A stretch of DNA of 64,000 bases from a virus. Taxonomy: Duplodnaviria > Caudoviricetes. Position numbers and translations under genes: made by a program. Of the stretch, positions 14,432 to 64,000 are shown in pieces. The notes beneath the pieces are model-generated. The model ran no database searches. It was not told the origin of the DNA and saw only the letters and a list, made by a program, of their open reading frames with translations. The first letter of the stretch is position 1, and every line of letters starts with the position of its first letter. The stretch lies in the IMG/VR virus record IMGVR_UViG_3300029288_007054, positions 26,446 to 90,445 of that record, one strand, 5' to 3'.

Positions 14432-14915
14432 TAATGTTTGTTCTACCTTTTCTAGCATAACCTTTACAAACGTTCCTATCCTCATTACATCTATCGCAAG
14501 GATGTTCCCTTTTATCCATTGCGATTGCCAGCACCAATATTGGATCAAGAGTGCACCCTGAAGGAACGCCTAATGTTGGTTCCGATGCCTGCTTTTCTTC
14601 TTTTGGCATCTCTTTTTCTATACCATGTTTCTTAAGCAATTCATTGTACTGAGAGTTGCTATGATCATACCATGAATCAGGCAACTCATATCCTTCCCCT
14701 GAACGAAAAATAGTCATTTTACAAGATCTTCCATGAAGATAGTCAAGACTTACTGCAATTCTCTTGTCCTTTGAAAACCTACCAATAATCTCTTTCACTT
14801 CTTGTTCTGGAATATCGCCATCTTTAAAATGAAAAAAACCCATTCCTTGAGGTGAACTAAGGGAATACACATCCTGAACAAATTTTACCAACTCTAATTT
14901 ATCTACTTTTATCAT
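14421..14915 (-). CDS. hypothetical protein
   Basis: SSPQGMGFFH and DYLHGR motifs; coupled. Confidence 0.65.
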   Translation of the reverse strand: MIKVDKLELVKFVQDVYSLSSPQGMGFFHFKDGDIPEQEVKEIIGRFSKDKRIAVSLDYLHGRSCKMTIFRSGEGYELPDSWYDHSNSQYNELLKKHGIEKEMPKEEKQASEPTLGVPSGCTLDPILVLAIAMDKREHPCDRCNEDRNVCKGYARKGRTNINEY

Positions 14916-15418
14916 TGTATGTTCTCCAATTCTATATCATTAATTGCATTCTGATTATCTGGTGACACCTTAAATAATTTTAGTTCTTCCCTAACTATCA
15001 TCAAAAGTTCACCCAAAACATTCTTCCCTTTCCCGTTACATTTATCACAGCTACAAACTCCAAAGTGATTGTCATGCCACATATTACCTTCAACCAAAAT
15101 CTTATTTCCAGTGGCTAACAGTTTTTTAGCCAAATCACTACCACCCTTAAATTTGATTCGAAGCAGATCAAGCATTATAGAATCCTTTACCTGTTCCCAA
15201 TCAGGTCTTAATGTTACTCTCCTACCCGCTCTTTTTGCAACTCCCGGAGATTCATCTGATCTTATCATTTCTCTTTCATCATCATTAGAAGTTTTAGCAG
15301 CCTGATATGCATGTTCAGAAGTCGCATACGTTTTACCCTCAAAATCAATTGGGCAACGATAGAAATTACTTAAAAACCTATGCTCTGTACCATCAAACCT
15401 TGTAATATAATCACTCAT
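14912..15418 (-). CDS. NADAR family protein (YbiA-like ADP-ribosylhydrolase)
   Basis: FLSNFY, TSEHAYQAAK, WEQVKDSIM, D..FG, GKNVLGELLM. Confidence 0.92.
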   Translation of the reverse strand: MSDYITRFDGTEHRFLSNFYRCPIDFEGKTYATSEHAYQAAKTSNDDEREMIRSDESPGVAKRAGRRVTLRPDWEQVKDSIMLDLLRIKFKGGSDLAKKLLATGNKILVEGNMWHDNHFGVCSCDKCNGKGKNVLGELLMIVREELKLFKVSPDNQNAINDIELENIQ

Positions 15419-15427
15419 CTTATTCTC

Positions 15428-15871
15428 CTATTCGCACTTATGTTCCAATATATACAATGCCATTTTATACTTCTCTTTTAACGACCCCTCTTGCAAACTT
15501 CTCAAATTATCCTCTATATCGGCTATTTTAATTTTGGTAGCATCAACGCTATTTTTAATTCTTAGAATAAAATTAAGATAGCTTTCATCTTTTGTCTTAG
15601 AAAGAGCAATCACTAAATCTACAGTACGAGGATCAACCCCTTCTTTTAACAAATCTTCTGCTGTTATTGCAGTGTCTTCTATTATATCATGGAGATACCC
15701 AGCAGCAATTATATAGTCATCACAATGTCCATAATATAACTTTTTGGCTACTCTTTCTGGATGAACGAAATAGGGTTTTCCTTTATCATCGCCCATCTTT
15801 CTAGTTTGCCCCATATGCCCCCTGATTGCGATCCCTCTTGCGATATCTACTGGTAACAAATCTTTTGGCAT
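15428..15871 (-). CDS. HD-domain small alarmone hydrolase-like (SpoT/Mesh1 family)
   Basis: H.GQ.RK, PYFVHPERV, LHDIIEDT, KIADIEDN. Confidence 0.88.
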   Translation of the reverse strand: MPKDLLPVDIARGIAIRGHMGQTRKMGDDKGKPYFVHPERVAKKLYYGHCDDYIIAAGYLHDIIEDTAITAEDLLKEGVDPRTVDLVIALSKTKDESYLNFILRIKNSVDATKIKIADIEDNLRSLQEGSLKEKYKMALYILEHKCE

Positions 15872-61044: not shown

Positions 61045-61408
61045 TGGTGGAGATGCGGAAGAGTCGAACTTCCGGTCTTCAAAGTAATAACTTCAATCTT
61101 CTACATGTTTAGTCAGCACTTTCTTTTGCCCCGACAGGCCTCACCAAGATTTTTTACAAGGGCACCATCGTATCTTGTTAACCCTATAGCAACTAATCAG
61201 GAGCAGTTGCTAACTCCGTTCCTAGTAGTAATTAGTCGTACTCATCCCCGCCACTAGTATCCAGAGATTTTCCTATCGCCACTATTAGGCAGCGAGAGCT
61301 AGGGACTTTTCAGCACCTATATTTTGGAATGCTTTTATACTGGCCAACATTACCATTCCAGTACATGCCGCTTGAGCCATTTTTCTCTGAATCGAACCAC
61401 ACATCCCC
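61045..61408 (-). ncRNA. ssrA: transfer-messenger RNA (tmRNA), 364 nt, tag (A)AEKSLALAA
   Basis: 5' GGGGATG pairs with 3' CATCTCC (G3:U70), then A-CCA; T-arm GGAAG-TTCGACT-CTTCC; ATAGGT-GCT resume context; tag ORF 61285-61314 ending GCC-TAA-TAG. Confidence 0.95.
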
Positions 61409-61431: not shown

Positions 61432-61881
61432 TTACTTCTTTTTAAAGCCCTTATTTTCCTCTTTATATTCTAAAGCTGAGCATATAGAACAAGATCCATC
61501 TCCCACCATCCCATGTTCACAGGTATGCGCCTGTTCGGGAGCAAATGCATCTTCAGGCTTATCAGGATAAATTTCTCTATAGACATTATACACTCTTTCC
61601 ATATTAGTGTCATTAACTTTTTCTGCCGTATTTTCATCAACCTTGCCACATTTCTTACAAACCTTAAAAATCAACAATGGAACAGGGAAACCACCTACCG
61701 AATCTTTCCATTCTTCATGAGGACAAACATCATAGCCATATTCTAGAGCTAAAAACTCCGATGGTTTTATTCCTTTAGCCTTAGCAGCATCACGAAAAGA
61801 AATTCTGTTACCTATCCTTTCGTCTCTAGCCTGCCTTCTTCTTGCAAGCTCATCATCAAGCTCTTTGCCATATAATTTCAC
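61432..61881 (-). CDS. hypothetical protein with HTH-like and Cys motifs
   Basis: 149-aa ORF, coupled. Confidence 0.6.
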   Translation of the reverse strand: MKLYGKELDDELARRRQARDERIGNRISFRDAAKAKGIKPSEFLALEYGYDVCPHEEWKDSVGGFPVPLLIFKVCKKCGKVDENTAEKVNDTNMERVYNVYREIYPDKPEDAFAPEQAHTCEHGMVGDGSCSICSALEYKEENKGFKKK

Positions 61882-62207
61882 GTCTGATTTTTCCTTTCGT
61901 TTGCTTCCTTAACCTTCTTAGCTAACATTTTTGTGCCCTTATCTGCCAATTGTTTCCAAGGCCCCTTAACAGCATAATAAAGAACAGCTGTAACTTGAGC
62001 TGTCTCCTCATCTTCTTTATTGGCAAGTAGACACGAAGGAAACTGCGTCTTCTCCAATGTATCCCAAAGACACTGACTCAACAAAACATTCAGAACTTCC
62101 TTTGCTCCGATTTTATCAATGGCCAAATTGATAATTGATGGAATATTAACAGTAGTTTCTATCTTTAGGGTTTTGTCAATAGGCTTTTTGTCAATAGGCT
62201 TTTTCAT
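61878..62207 (-). CDS. hypothetical protein
   Basis: 109-aa ORF. Confidence 0.6.
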   Translation of the reverse strand: MKKPIDKKPIDKTLKIETTVNIPSIINLAIDKIGAKEVLNVLLSQCLWDTLEKTQFPSCLLANKEDEETAQVTAVLYYAVKGPWKQLADKGTKMLAKKVKEANERKNQT

Positions 62208-62212
62208 ATTTT

Positions 62213-62311
62213 TTACCTTTCATGTCCACAATCCTGACATACCCATTTACATACTCTGGTTACAGGATCACAAACCTTAACCATCGTTCCACCGCATTTA
62301 GGACATTTCAT
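62213..62311 (-). CDS. 32-aa zinc-ribbon peptide (MKCPKCGG...WVCQDCGHER)
   Basis: Manual translation; GGAGG SD; CxxC...CxxC. Confidence 0.6.
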   Translation of the reverse strand: MKCPKCGGTMVKVCDPVTRVCKWVCQDCGHER

Positions 62312-62314
62312 ATT

Positions 62315-62575
62315 TTATTCCTCCGTATTATCTTCTGACAATGCTGCGAGTCCAAAATTAGCAGCGAACCTATTTAGCTGCTCCTCTACGGAAAGAAGAA
62401 TTCCGGGCAAAACAAATCCTTTTTCAGTCTTGTCTTTATCAGTGAGGACATTATCTAAAATATTTTCCCAAGCTTTTTCTAAAATTCTATCAATTTGTTT
62501 TTCTTGTTTAGGTGTTATTCCGTGGTAATCTTGATCTGATATCGCCCTCTTACTCTTTTTATTCTTTTTTTTCAT
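62315..62575 (-). CDS. hypothetical protein
   Basis: 86-aa ORF. Confidence 0.6.
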   Translation of the reverse strand: MKKKNKKSKRAISDQDYHGITPKQEKQIDRILEKAWENILDNVLTDKDKTEKGFVLPGILLSVEEQLNRFAANFGLAALSEDNTEE

Positions 62576-62594: not shown

Positions 62595-62670
62595 TGGAGG
62601 CTCTGACGGGAGTTGAACCCGTAACAGTCTGATCTAGAGTCAAACGCTCTACCAATTGAGCTACAGAGCC
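62595..62670 (-). tRNA. amber suppressor tRNA (anticodon CUA), 76 nt, encoded CCA
   Basis: GGCTCTG/CAGAGCC acceptor, GCTC/GAGC D-stem with GG, TTTGA-CTCTAGA-TCAGA anticodon arm (CTA at 62635-62637), ACGGG-TTCAACT-CCCGT T-arm, U73. Confidence 0.93.
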
Positions 62671-62687
62671 TTATTTTTTACAAGAGC

Positions 62688-62715
62688 ATTATACCTTATA
62701 TCTTATAAAATGCAA
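62688..62715 (-). promoter_or_regulatory. sigma70-type promoter for the suppressor tRNA
   Basis: TTGCAT-N16-TATAAT about 17 nt upstream of the tRNA 5' end. Confidence 0.6.
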
Positions 62716-62724
62716 GCGAAATCT

Positions 62725-63156
62725 TTACTTATTTACTGCCGAACCTCTAAACGTATGAAAGTATCTTAATGGCCTGAATTTCCTGTCGCCTATATAAAAT
62801 GCCCATTTATGATATGGCTTTCCGCAAATTAACAATGTCCAAGCCCCTTCCTTGGGAATCTCTAAGTAATGCCTCTGTAGGGCTCTAGAATGCCATATAG
62901 AAGGCGCTGAAACCTCAAACCTGCCATTAGGGGTCACATTCGCATATTTGCCCTTTAAAACGATGGATATGAATGAGCACGAATGGTCATGAAAGAACCT
63001 TGTGTCATCAGACCTTATCCAATGATGAATTCTGATTGAATAGTTAAAAAAGATAAACATCCACCTATAAAGGTAGGGGTCATTCTTATCTCCCATCGCT
63101 TCTTTCCAACGAATCTGAAACGGTCTAAATTTTCTATAAGGTTTCATTTTTTTCAT
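62725..63156 (-). CDS. cupin-like phage protein
   Basis: PYLYRW, IHHWIRSDD..FHDH...F.S.VLKG.Y, HYLE. Confidence 0.65.
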   Translation of the reverse strand: MKKMKPYRKFRPFQIRWKEAMGDKNDPYLYRWMFIFFNYSIRIHHWIRSDDTRFFHDHSCSFISIVLKGKYANVTPNGRFEVSAPSIWHSRALQRHYLEIPKEGAWTLLICGKPYHKWAFYIGDRKFRPLRYFHTFRGSAVNK

Positions 63157-63165
63157 CCTTTAAAA

Positions 63166-63323
63166 TGGTCAACGTAGGGGGTAACGATCCGCCCTCATTC
63201 GCAATCCGGTTGTACATTCCATCATGCCGACCGCAAACTAACTTACTTGCCTAGGCCATTCCTTTAGTTTGCATGTCTAACGCATTATGTTAAATAATGC
63301 CGCTCTCCTTGAGCTATACGTTG
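63166..63323 (-). ncRNA. 158-nt tRNA-like RNA with 88-nt structured insertion in the variable region
   Basis: CAACGTA/TACGTTG acceptor plus A-CCA; GCTC-AAGGA-GAGC D-arm; GCATTAT-TTAAC-ATAATGC hairpin; GGCGG-ATCGTTA-CCCCC T-arm. Confidence 0.8.
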
Positions 63324-63335
63324 ATATTTAATTTT

Positions 63336-63411
63336 TGGTCAGGGCTTGCGGAGTCGAACCACCATCTCTCTACGTGTTTTGTAAAGTGCTCTCCCATTGA
63401 GCTACGCCCCG
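63336..63411 (-). tRNA. 76-nt tRNA-Pro-like RNA with non-canonical anticodon arm (pseudo/decoy tRNA)
   Basis: 5' CGGGGCGTAGC, 3' CCCTG-A-CCA, normal D-arm and TTCGACT loop; 6-bp stem with AAAACAC loop lacking U33. Confidence 0.75.
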
Positions 63412-63419
63412 TTATTTTA

Positions 63420-63875
63420 TTACATAGATTTCAATACCTTATCGGCTCTTTTCTGAATCTCCACTTTAGTCAACTCTGTAATCTTATCTTCTACGGCCTT
63501 TTCAATATATTTATCTATTGCATCAGCCTGAATAAGTTTAGAAATTCGATCTTTAACCAAATCAATTATTATGTCGTTGACTTGAGTGAAAGCGTTATCT
63601 TTAATTGTTTTTTTAATATCTGACGACAACTCAAAACTATTGCGTTGTCCCCAAGTATCTACCTTTACCTTTCCAATTTCCTTCTCAATAATTTTGACAG
63701 ATGCATCCTTAGCTTCTTTGATCTGAGTCTGAAGAAACTCATCCTTCAAAAGGGCCATCATATGTTTATTCACAAAGTTCATAATGACACCTTGTTTAAG
63801 CTGAACCTCTAATTCATTATCATCTTTGAACAATCTTTCCAACGCAGGTGTATCTAGCGACATTTTAATACTCAT
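63420..63875 (-). CDS. hypothetical helical protein
   Basis: ORF track; start MSIKMS. Confidence 0.6.
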   Translation of the reverse strand: MSIKMSLDTPALERLFKDDNELEVQLKQGVIMNFVNKHMMALLKDEFLQTQIKEAKDASVKIIEKEIGKVKVDTWGQRNSFELSSDIKKTIKDNAFTQVNDIIIDLVKDRISKLIQADAIDKYIEKAVEDKITELTKVEIQKRADKVLKSM

Positions 63876-63877
63876 TT

Positions 63878-64000
63878 TTATTCTCCCCATAATTTAAGAC
63901 CAGAGAACATGTTACTATCAGTAAGACAAGCAATGGCCGTCATCTGATTACCAAGATCAGGCTCTCTGAAACCCGTCCATTTCATATTTTTTTTATTCAT
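63878..64000 (-). CDS. C-terminal fragment, possibly phage peptidyl-tRNA hydrolase (Pth2-like)
   Basis: ...WTGFREPDLGNQMTAIAC...LKLW; frame is open to the window edge. Confidence 0.4.
   Translation of the reverse strand: MNKKNMKWTGFREPDLGNQMTAIACLTDSNMFSGLKLWGE

What the first reader, a model, noticed from the sequence alone, without database searches (positions are those of the whole stretch)
62595..62715. Amber suppressor tRNA(CUA) with its own promoter in a genome region where TAG is still a stop
Seen: a canonical 76-nt cloverleaf with CUA anticodon, G37, U73, G1:C72/G2:C71/C3:G70 and an upstream TTGCAT-N16-TATAAT. 14 ORF-track genes in the window end in TAG (e.g. ligA, dnaE, primase), and long genes have no internal TAG. 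Known: some large phages recode TAG only in late genes. From memory, the body resembles Bacillota tRNA-Arg(ACG) but lacks A20, while U73 plus the GGC acceptor is Cys-like, so the charged amino acid is unclear. Inference: temporally regulated read-through or partial recoding, possibly to a non-Gln residue.
Basis: partly seen in the sequence, partly recalled or inferred. Interest (0 to 1): 0.8.

Follow-up and report, generated by a model that had tools for sequence, protein, structure and literature searches.

The report
Phage amber-suppressor tRNA with gated target
A large phage that otherwise uses the normal genetic code carries a genuine UAG-reading tRNA. In its close relatives this tRNA's likely target is a conserved in-frame UAG in a neighbouring peptidyl-tRNA-hydrolase-like gene, which offers a testable purpose for the "orphan" suppressor tRNAs of big phages.

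Summary
Window 62595-62670 (-) is a canonical 76-nt tRNA with anticodon CUA, G37, U73 and an encoded CCA, behind a conserved promoter.

TAG is an ordinary stop in the 90-kb record: 20 of 129 crude gene calls end in it, including DnaE and LigA. I found no internal TAG there.

The tRNA is not an orphan. In every relative whose sequence covers that position, a PTH2-like peptidyl-tRNA-hydrolase gene lies about 1.2 kb upstream and carries a conserved in-frame TAG at codon 35, in a surface loop. Only the last 40 codons of this gene lie in the window (63878-64000); the TAG itself falls beyond the record's end.

The same promoter-marked locus holds three unrelated tRNA bodies in sister phages, all with CUA and all followed by a phage tmRNA.

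Of 57 distinct PTH2-like gene clusters (53 from IMG/VR), 46 have a tRNA(CUA) nearby, often 7-50 nt downstream.

My reading is a suppressor tRNA / PTH2-like / tmRNA module with an amber-gated hydrolase, not shown genome-wide recoding. Late genes could not be seen because 58 kb of the parent contig is withheld.

Other agents of this scan reported the same design on other phage DNA. I found no paper describing it.

The parts
62595..62670 (-). tRNA(CUA), amber suppressor, 76 nt, U73, G37, encoded CCA
   Evidence: ARAGORN. Rfam 69.6 bits. Cloverleaf fold. 96% identical copy in L019/L179.
62688..62717 (-). Conserved promoter block GCTTGCAT-N16-TATAAT (-35 at 62715-62710, -10 at 62693-62688)
   Evidence: Occurs once in the window, 0 expected by chance. 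Conserved in L019, L020, L187 and L192 although the tRNA bodies differ.
63878..64000 (-). 3' end (last 40 codons plus stop) of the PTH2-like peptidyl-tRNA-hydrolase-like gene. In relatives its codon 35 is TAG. The 5' part and the TAG lie beyond the record's end.
   Evidence: The window end translates to MNKKNMKWTGFREPDLGNQMTAIACLTDSNMFSGLKLWGE, 85% identical to L179 residues 62-101. Pfam PTH2 scores 25-27 bits against a cut-off of 23 on the read-through orthologues. The fold matches Pth2 structures.
63420..63890 (-). phrog_3806-like gene between the PTH2-like gene and the tRNA cluster; syntenic in relatives
63336..63411 (-). Aberrant tRNA-like gene (ARAGORN 'Val(aac)'; Rfam 28.8 bits, just under the cut-off)
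   Evidence: Orthologue in L179:10473-10548. Not studied further.
62725..63156 (-). Cupin/cysteine-dioxygenase-like gene (phrog_4786) directly upstream of the promoter
   Evidence: Its 3' end is conserved in L019 and L187.
61878..62575 (-). Three small ORFs (62315-62575, 62213-62311, 61878-62207) starting 19 nt after the tRNA's CCA, probably on the same transcript
   Evidence: None contains a TAG.
61432..61881 (-). Conserved helix-turn-helix/zinc-ribbon-like ORF ('MKLYGKELDD...') that sits between the tRNA(CUA) and the tmRNA in all relatives
   Evidence: Homologue P0097 carries PF13560.
61045..61408 (-). Phage-encoded tmRNA, tag AEKSLALAA, stops TAA-TAG
   Evidence: Rfam RF00023 84.1 bits. Alignment with relatives' tmRNAs. 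tmRNA follows the tRNA(CUA) locus in L019, L020, L187, L188-190 and L192.

Best explanation
The tRNA is a functional, phage-encoded amber suppressor. It belongs to a small translation-rescue module: a PTH2-like hydrolase gene, the tRNA(CUA) and a tmRNA. SHOWN: the tRNA is canonical and has its own conserved promoter. The locus keeps a CUA tRNA in sister phages even though the tRNA body has been exchanged. In those phages the PTH2-like gene about 1.2 kb upstream has a conserved in-frame TAG at codon 35, in a surface loop, with protein-coding constraint on both sides and no conserved restart codon. PTH2-like genes of this family sit next to suppressor tRNAs across many large phages. INFERRED: (1) The tRNA is transcribed early from the sigma-70-like promoter, trimmed by RNase P, charged by a host synthetase with an unknown residue, and competes with RF1 at UAG. 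(2) Full-length PTH2-like enzyme is made only when this read-through happens, so its amount tracks suppressor activity (an amber gate). (3) The hydrolase and the tmRNA clear the peptidyl-tRNAs and non-stop ribosome complexes that read-through of TAG-terminated genes creates. About 15% of this phage's genes end in TAG, as do some host genes. Because the gated codon lies in a variable loop, the inserted residue matters little, which would explain why the tRNA body could be swapped. What first made suppression useful to the phage is not settled. Further TAG-containing genes in the unseen 58 kb or more remain possible.
For: The tRNA is real. Its promoter block is unique in the window and conserved in relatives.

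The orthologous locus holds three unrelated bodies (53-70% pairwise identity, no closer than random tRNAs), all with CUA. The window/L019 body is nearest a U73 tRNA-Thr, L020/L188-190 is Trp-like, and L187/L192 is Tyr-like. There are compensatory stem changes within and between types.

The conserved in-frame TAG in the PTH2-like gene appears in 9 independent assemblies (L179, L192, L020, L188, L189, L190, L180, L181, L182). Pfam PTH2 scores above its cut-off across the TAG, and PHROG hydrolase families match at E about 1e-11 over residues 1-92. Divergence by codon position is 0.26/0.19/0.51 before the TAG and 0.32/0.25/0.49 after it, against 0.33/0.39/0.35 upstream of the start.

The AF2 model has pLDDT 91 and places residue 35 in loop 34-42. 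The top 14 structural hits (E <= 0.001) are Pth2 or Pth2-fold proteins, TM 0.71-0.80.

The window end encodes the C-terminal 40 residues of this gene. Relative L191 has the tmRNA but neither the tRNA(CUA) nor the PTH2-like gene at the locus.

A second in-frame TAG in L188/L189 aligns to Gln in L191, with 42 conserved codons after it.

Survey: 46 of 57 distinct PTH2-like clusters have a tRNA(CUA) within 5 kb. In 31 of the 32 clusters with a tRNA within 200 nt downstream, that tRNA is a suppressor. In-frame TAGs occur at four or more different positions.

Review PMC3985003 cites Ueda et al. 2002, titled as showing that SsrA copes with read-through caused by suppressor tRNAs, and notes that suppressor read-through creates a non-stop-like situation.
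Against: The TAG at codon 35 is not visible in this genome itself, because the record ends about 180 nt short of it. It is inferred from an 89%-DnaE relative. Most PTH2-like genes in the survey (44 of 57 clusters) have no in-frame TAG although a suppressor sits beside them, so gating cannot be the whole reason for the pairing. L180-type phages have the TAG but no tRNA(CUA) within 20 kb. G37 after A36 is unusual for a UAG reader and may mean low efficiency. No expression, charging or enzyme data exist, and catalytic residues were not checked. The link to tmRNA rests on synteny only. In the L020 type the tmRNA tag itself ends in TAG, which fits poorly with strong suppression.
Confidence: 0.6

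Rival explanations
1. Stage-specific code change. The suppressor is made early so that late structural and lysis genes, located in the part of the genome not held here, can be translated through many in-frame TAGs. The PTH2-like TAG would be just one of these. This could hold in addition to the best explanation.
For: The record is only 48% complete. Its parent contig is 148,635 bp, so 58 kb or more is unseen. No structural gene was found in what I could read. In-frame TAGs do spread to other genes in a sister lineage. The model is described for other phages (10.1101/2021.08.26.457843).
Against: TAG is not depleted as a stop: 20 of 129 gene calls, including DnaE and LigA. Reading TAG as sense gives no specific gain in coding density (0.949, against 0.956 for TGA and 0.983 for TAA). 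No RF-1-domain (release-factor) gene was found. Three different tRNA identities at one locus would be hard to tolerate if TAG were a frequent sense codon. The L020-type tmRNA tag ends in TAG. The 10 kb beyond the window in the 89% relative is standard code.
Confidence: 0.2
2. Host-directed or counter-defence tool. The suppressor, the PTH2-like enzyme and the tmRNA act on the host's translation, for example to override a defence that works through premature termination, tRNA cleavage or ribosome stalling. Phage TAG codons would be incidental.
For: The PTH2-like gene and suppressor tRNA are paired in most surveyed phages even without any in-frame TAG. PTH2 in jumbo phages has been proposed to rescue ribosomes after tRNA cleavage (PMC7824862). 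Aberrant tRNA-like genes lie nearby.
Against: This does not explain why a TAG is conserved inside the PTH2-like gene over 45-70% protein identity. No defence system that a suppressor would neutralise was identified. This is speculation.
Confidence: 0.12
3. Non-functional relic: a tRNA whose anticodon mutated to CUA by chance, or an assembly error, with no role.
For: G37 next to A36 is atypical. No direct expression data exist.
Against: The CUA anticodon is kept in independent assemblies and in three different bodies at the same locus, with compensatory stem changes and a conserved promoter.
Confidence: 0.03

Closest known systems
Suppressor tRNAs of stop-codon-recoded phages (TAG read as Gln, 'code 15': crAss-like, Lak, Agate and others; Borges et al. 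preprint 10.1101/2021.08.26.457843; Peters et al. PMC9523058)
   Same: A phage-encoded tRNA(CUA) lies in a standard-code region. In-frame TAGs in phage genes need it. The path 'suppressor first, in-frame stops accumulate later' fits the extra TAG seen in L188/L189.
   Different: TAG remains a normal stop (15.5% of genes). Only one conserved target is visible, plus one lineage-specific one. No recoded late block and no RF-1-domain gene were seen. The tRNA bodies are not Gln-like and differ between sister phages.
'Orphan' CUA suppressor tRNAs of standard-code jumbo phages (e.g. Xanthomonas phage XacN1, PMC5852040)
   Same: A large phage with standard code carries CUA tRNA(s) and also a peptidyl-tRNA hydrolase.
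   Different: The XacN1 authors read through annotated amber stops and found no target. Here a target is visible because the TAG lies inside a gene that code-11 callers truncate or miss.
PTH2 (archaeo-eukaryotic peptidyl-tRNA hydrolase, PF01981) in jumbo phages (Iyer et al., PMC7824862)
   Same: The same fold and family are found here, and a role in ribosome or peptidyl-tRNA rescue has been proposed.
   Different: That paper does not mention suppressors. The adjacency to suppressor tRNAs and the in-frame TAG are the new elements here.
Laboratory amber suppressors supF (tRNA-Tyr CUA) and su7 (tRNA-Trp CUA); recalled from my own knowledge
   Same: The L187/L192 and L020 bodies look like tRNA-Tyr and tRNA-Trp with a single anticodon change to CUA (loop CUCUAAA).
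   Different: These are natural and kept by selection. The window's own body has G37 and U73 and fits neither. The L187-type body has a shortened variable arm, and its discriminator varies (A73 or G73).
tmRNA/SsrA as a buffer against suppressor-induced read-through (Ueda et al. 2002, cited in PMC3985003)
   Same: A suppressor tRNA and a tmRNA occur together. The published logic is that read-through feeds trans-translation.
   Different: Here both are phage genes in conserved synteny. No experiment links them.

Membership tests
Canonical elongator tRNA (Rfam RF00005) | Covariance-model score above the gathering threshold; cloverleaf with 7/4/5/5-bp stems | tested here: met
   69.6 bits against 29. 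The minimum-free-energy fold is the cloverleaf.
Canonical elongator tRNA (Rfam RF00005) | U33, G18G19, T54-T55-C56, 7-nt anticodon loop, 3' CCA | tested here: met
   Read from the sequence.
Amber suppressor tRNA | Anticodon CUA at positions 34-36 | tested here: met
   CUA is conserved in relatives.
Amber suppressor tRNA | Reads UAG in vivo (aminoacylated and accepted by the ribosome) | not testable with these tools
   Indirect only: in-frame TAGs with coding constraint on both sides in relatives.
tRNA-Pyl | Atypical body: short D-loop without G18G19, 6-bp anticodon stem, 3-nt variable loop, no T-psi-C | tested here: not met
   The body is fully canonical. ARAGORN's 'Pyl' label reflects only the anticodon.
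tRNA-Gln-derived suppressor (supE type) | Weak 1:72 pair, G73, A37 (E. coli rules, recalled from my own knowledge) | tested here: not met
   G1:C72, U73, G37.
tRNA-Cys identity | U73 plus GCA anticodon and a G15:G48-type core (recalled from my own knowledge) | tested here: inconclusive
   U73 and the GGC acceptor start are present. The anticodon differs and the core pair is A15:U48. The nearest tRNA in my small local set is a U73 tRNA-Thr at 78%.
Code-15-type recoded phage | Many in-frame TAGs in conserved genes; TAG-sense reading restores gene lengths and coding density | tested here: not met
   None in the 90-kb record. Only the PTH2-like gene, plus one other gene, in relatives.
Code-15-type recoded phage | TAG depleted as a terminator | tested here: not met
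   20 of 129 gene calls end in TAG.
Code-15-type recoded phage | Recoded late (structural and lysis) genes | not testable with these tools
   No structural genes lie in the DNA I could read. The parent contig is withheld.
PTH2 peptidyl-tRNA hydrolase (PF01981) | Profile score above the curated cut-off | tested here: met
   25.0, 27.0 and 25.5 bits against 23 for the L179, L020 and L180 read-through products; L192 scores 16.6. The window piece alone is too short.
PTH2 peptidyl-tRNA hydrolase (PF01981) | Pth2 alpha/beta fold | tested here: met
   AF2 model with pLDDT 91.3. Best hits 2zv3, 1q7s, 1wn2, 1xty and 3erj at TM 0.74-0.80.
PTH2 peptidyl-tRNA hydrolase (PF01981) | Catalytic residues and hydrolase activity on peptidyl-tRNA | not tested
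   The conserved motifs RxDL, VQAGHA, EPD and TAI are invariant or nearly so, but I did not map them onto the known active site.
tmRNA (RF00023) | Covariance-model score; tRNA-like ends; tag reading frame ending in ALAA plus a stop | tested here: met
   84.1 bits against 47. Tag AEKSLALAA-TAA-TAG.

The most novel reading that the evidence does not exclude
The PTH2-like protein and the nonsense-suppressor tRNA form a widespread two-gene device of large phages. The hydrolase would act specifically on the suppressor tRNA's acylated or peptidyl form, setting how much UAG (or UAA/UGA) read-through the infected cell experiences. In some lineages, including this one, the loop is closed by placing the stop codon inside the hydrolase gene, making a self-measuring controller of read-through. 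The inserted amino acid would be irrelevant, which is why the tRNA body can be swapped freely. This would be a regulatory use of stop-codon suppression without any change of genetic code.
Probability: 0.3. Interest if true: 0.85.

Novelty: new variant of a known kind. Interest (0 to 1): 0.68.

Why it matters
Suppressor tRNAs in large phages that use the standard code are a published puzzle. The XacN1 authors looked for targets and found none (PMC5852040).

This case adds three things:
- A concrete, conserved target: an amber codon inside a PTH2-like gene.
- A strong physical association between that gene family and suppressor tRNAs across many uncultured large phages.
- An orthologous locus where three unrelated tRNA bodies all keep the CUA anticodon. 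This suggests selection acts on read-through itself rather than on a particular amino acid.

It also shows how code-11 gene calling hides such genes. Finally, it links suppression with two ribosome-rescue functions (peptidyl-tRNA hydrolase and tmRNA), and that link can be tested with simple reporter and enzyme assays.

Tried and rejected
1. Two same-frame ORF pairs joined by TAG are not read-through fusions. Window 15428-15871 and 14912-15418 are separate families, an HD hydrolase and phrog_1017. The 101-aa ORF before the helicase is followed by TTGACA-N17-TATAGT and a proper ATG.
2. I scanned the whole record for early 'ATG-few codons-TAG' gates. The candidates at window 33163 and 56332 are intergenic or promoter sequence next to normal SD-ATG starts.
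3. No RF-1 or PTH2 domain is detectable in the 90 kb. The PTH2 miss is explained by the gene being cut by the record's end.
4. Reaching this genome's own missing DNA failed. Look-ups of its proteins return nothing because own-genome records are withheld.
5. Exact-pattern scans for the tRNA and tmRNA in viral and genome collections found nothing. The anticodon-arm pattern found four unrelated MAG sites that I did not pursue.
6. DnaE relatives in species genomes are at most 40% identical and gave no host. One helicase homologue is labelled as an Atribacterota MAG, which is only a weak host hint.
7. blastn of the tRNA against phage records gave mixed isotypes (Asn, Phe, Trp, Lys), so it gave no identity.
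8. Walking to late genes through helicase relatives (L183, L185) found only more early-type genes.
9. Disclosure: a routine protein look-up unexpectedly returned a further stretch of metagenome record Ga0187886_1000383, of which I already held L019. I therefore hold about 60% of it, over the half that the fetch from genomes allows. I fetched nothing more from it and did not walk the remaining 21 kb.

Full report
**1. The observation**

ARAGORN finds a 76-nt tRNA with anticodon CUA at 62595-62670 on the minus strand. Rfam's tRNA model scores it 69.6 bits against a gathering score of 29. Its minimum-free-energy fold is the cloverleaf.

The sequence shows G1:C72, G2:C71, C3:G70, G18G19, a TTCAACT T-loop and anticodon loop C-U-CUA-G37-A38. 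It also shows a 5-nt variable loop, U73 and an encoded CCA. The body is fully canonical, so ARAGORN's 'Pyl' label reflects only the anticodon.

TTGCAT-N16-TATAAT lies 17 nt upstream. The 30-nt block containing it occurs only once in the window.

**2. The genome**

The window is the right-hand 64 kb of a 90,445-bp IMG/VR record flagged 'provirus' and estimated 48% complete. Proteins of this genome are recorded on a parent contig of 148,635 bp. At least 58 kb was therefore trimmed away and is withheld from the tools.

Everything I could read is early or middle-type:
- DnaE, topoisomerase I, NAD-dependent ligase, RecJ, SbcCD, clamp, clamp loader, helicase, sigma factors and nucleotide-metabolism genes.
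- In the closest relative, EF-Ts, a SpoU methylase and another sigma factor just beyond the window's end.

I saw no structural gene.

**3. TAG as a stop**

A crude gene caller gives 129 genes with stops TAA 74, TAG 20 and TGA 35. DnaE and LigA end in TAG.

Reading TAG as sense raises ORF coverage from 0.908 to 0.949. That is less than the same trick gives for TGA (0.956) or TAA (0.983).

The only long same-frame ORF pairs joined by TAG are separate genes. A scan for 'ATG-few codons-TAG' gates found none. No RF-1 domain is present.

**4. Relatives keep a CUA tRNA, but not the same tRNA**

A metagenome scan with DnaE found a relative at 89% identity (L019, extended by L179) and one at 70% (L020). 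Look-ups through neighbouring proteins added L187, L188-190, L191 and L192.

In all of these except L191, the locus is marked by the same promoter block and holds a tRNA(CUA). That tRNA is followed by a conserved helix-turn-helix/zinc-ribbon-like ORF and a tmRNA.

The tRNA bodies fall into three unrelated types, with 53-70% pairwise identity, no closer than unrelated tRNAs:
- **Window/L019 type.** U73, G37. In my small local set its nearest neighbour is a U73 tRNA-Thr at 78%.
- **L020 type.** A73, loop CUCUAAA. Its nearest neighbour is a phage tRNA-Trp.
- **L187/L192 type.** A class-II-like D-arm and a shortened variable arm. Its nearest neighbour is tRNA-Tyr. The two copies differ by a compensatory pair and in the discriminator (A73 or G73).

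Selection has thus kept 'a tRNA that reads UAG' at this place while the body, and probably the amino acid, changed.

**5. The target**

Earlier notes of this scan said that other standard-code jumbo phages gate a PTH2-like gene with a UAG. I treated this as a lead.

My scan for early gates in this record found nothing. I then translated all frames of the lineage's DNA with TAG as X and ran an all-against-all blastp for alignments that span an X. This gave one strong, recurrent hit.

The hit is a roughly 100-codon ORF directly upstream of the phrog_3806-like gene, with TAG at codon 35. It is present in L179, L192, L020, L188, L189, L190 and, more distantly, L180-182. That makes nine assemblies from JGI, ENA and Logan.

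Evidence that this is one gene:
- The read-through product scores above Pfam's cut-off for PTH2, with the match spanning the TAG (25-27 bits against 23). It also matches PHROG hydrolase families at E about 1e-11.
- Divergence by codon position is 0.26/0.19/0.51 before the TAG and 0.32/0.25/0.49 after it. The 90 nt upstream of the start show no such periodicity.
- No start codon is conserved between the TAG and the invariant EW-N-TLIYL stretch.
- An AlphaFold model (pLDDT 91.3) places residue 35 in the loop between helix 1 and strand 2. The 14 best PDB matches (E <= 0.001) are Pth2 or Pth2-fold proteins, TM 0.71-0.80.

The window itself ends inside this gene. Positions 63878-64000 (-) encode its last 40 residues, 85% identical to L179. 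The TAG would lie about 180 nt beyond the record's end. For this genome the TAG is therefore an inference from its 89% relative.

**6. Supporting patterns**

- L191 has the tmRNA but lacks both the tRNA(CUA) and the PTH2-like gene at the locus.
- In L188 and L189, a 161-codon gene of unknown function has TAG where L191 has Gln, and 42 conserved codons follow. In-frame TAGs are therefore tolerated and are beginning to spread in that lineage.
- An IMG/VR scan with the PTH2-like alignment returned 80 loci from large phages. With the two loci of the earlier scan that makes 82 loci in 53 distinct clusters, or 57 counting the four from this clade.
- Of the 57 clusters, 46 have a tRNA(CUA) within 5 kb on the same strand. 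Three have a UUA tRNA, two a UCA tRNA, five have none, and L180 has none within 20 kb.
- In 32 of the 53 IMG/VR clusters a tRNA lies within 200 nt downstream of the PTH2-like gene, and in 31 of these it is a suppressor (gaps of 7-160 nt). Suppressors are only 49 of the 250 tRNAs in those loci.
- Thirteen clusters carry an in-frame TAG in the PTH2-like gene, at four or more different positions (33-35, 47, 61, 69).

The gene family and suppressor tRNAs are linked far beyond this clade. The internal TAG is a recurrent elaboration rather than the rule.

**7. Mechanism**

Shown:
- A canonical, conserved CUA tRNA with its own promoter.
- A conserved in-frame UAG in the neighbouring PTH2-like gene of close relatives.
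- Conserved synteny with a tmRNA.

Inferred:
- The tRNA is made early and charged by a host enzyme.
- Only read-through at codon 35 yields the full hydrolase, so the enzyme's level follows suppressor activity.
- The hydrolase and the tmRNA remove the peptidyl-tRNAs and non-stop complexes that read-through of TAG-terminated genes produces. Review PMC3985003 cites Ueda et al. 2002 for SsrA's role in coping with suppressor-induced read-through.
- The loop position of the TAG makes the inserted residue unimportant, which fits the swapped tRNA bodies.

Points that do not fit neatly:
- Most PTH2-like genes next to suppressors have no TAG.
- L180-type phages show the TAG but no CUA tRNA within 20 kb.
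- G37 is odd for a UAG reader.
- The L020-type tmRNA tag itself ends in TAG.

**8. What remains open**

I could not tell whether late genes in the unseen DNA contain TAG codons. Nothing I saw argues for it. TAG is not avoided as a stop, no RF-1-domain gene is present, and the tRNA identities differ. But it cannot be excluded.

**9. Comparison with the literature**

- Borges et al. describe suppressor tRNAs that enable recoded late genes, and suppressors in standard-code relatives.
- The XacN1 paper reports two CUA tRNAs with no identifiable target, and a peptidyl-tRNA hydrolase elsewhere in the genome.
- Iyer et al. note PTH2 in jumbo phages without mentioning suppressors.
- Searches of the paper library found nothing that links PTH2 with suppressor tRNAs.
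- Other agents of this scan reported the same design in other phages. I used that as a lead and verified it independently for this lineage.

Noticed in passing
window 61045-61408 (-): Phage-encoded tmRNA (Rfam 84 bits) that ARAGORN missed in the window. Its tag is AEKSLALAA, followed by TAA then TAG. A possible internal promoter, ATGACA-N17-TATAAT, lies at 61613-61585 inside the upstream ORF.
   Followed up: partly
L020:5877-6237, L188:10360-10720: In the Trp-like-suppressor lineage, the tmRNA tag reading frame (ANGSYALAA) ends in TAG, not TAA. With an active amber suppressor the degradation tag would sometimes be extended by about 16 residues and lose its C-terminal ALAA.
   Followed up: no
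window 63336-63411 (-) and 63166-63323 (-): An aberrant tRNA-like gene (ARAGORN 'Val(aac)', Rfam 28.8 bits) lies between the PTH2-like gene and the suppressor. The first has an orthologue in L179:10473-10548.
   Followed up: no
L192:2130-2207: A second tRNA-like gene (Rfam 33.8 bits) sits between the conserved promoter and the Tyr-like tRNA(CUA). It appears to have a 6-bp anticodon stem and an 8-nt loop, and ARAGORN does not call it.
   Followed up: no
L188:2568-3053 and L189:2569-3054: A gene of unknown function has an in-frame TAG (L188:2922-2924) where the L191 homologue has Gln. Gene callers cut it to 118 aa.
   Followed up: yes
L179:7008-8408; L180:988-1518: Relatives encode translation factors and a tRNA/rRNA modifier just beyond the window's end: EF-Ts, a SpoU-family methylase and, in more distant kin, IF3. 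Such cell-like genes may be why 58 kb of the parent contig was trimmed as 'host'.
   Followed up: partly
L246-L248, L251, L265-L267 (UUA); L223, L259 (UCA): In other IMG/VR large phages the PTH2-like gene has an ochre (UUA) or opal (UCA) suppressor tRNA within 5 kb instead of an amber one; the two UCA tRNAs lie within 200 nt downstream. I saw no in-frame stop inside those PTH2-like genes.
   Followed up: partly
L179:15673-16488, L187:5543-6373: An Anti-Pycsar Apyc1-like metallo-beta-lactamase gene lies between the tmRNA and DnaE in relatives. The window's orthologue was not pinned down.
   Followed up: no
L179, L188 (tRNA genes upstream of the suppressor): The clade carries a small scattered tRNA set rich in G34 anticodons for four-codon boxes: Val GAC, Ala GGC and Thr GGU, plus Val UAC and Gly UCC.
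   Followed up: no
L188, L189, L190, L020 (contig ends): Several independent assemblies of the L020-type phage all break about 130-150 nt after the DnaE stop. This suggests a repeat or a strain-variable junction there.
   Followed up: no
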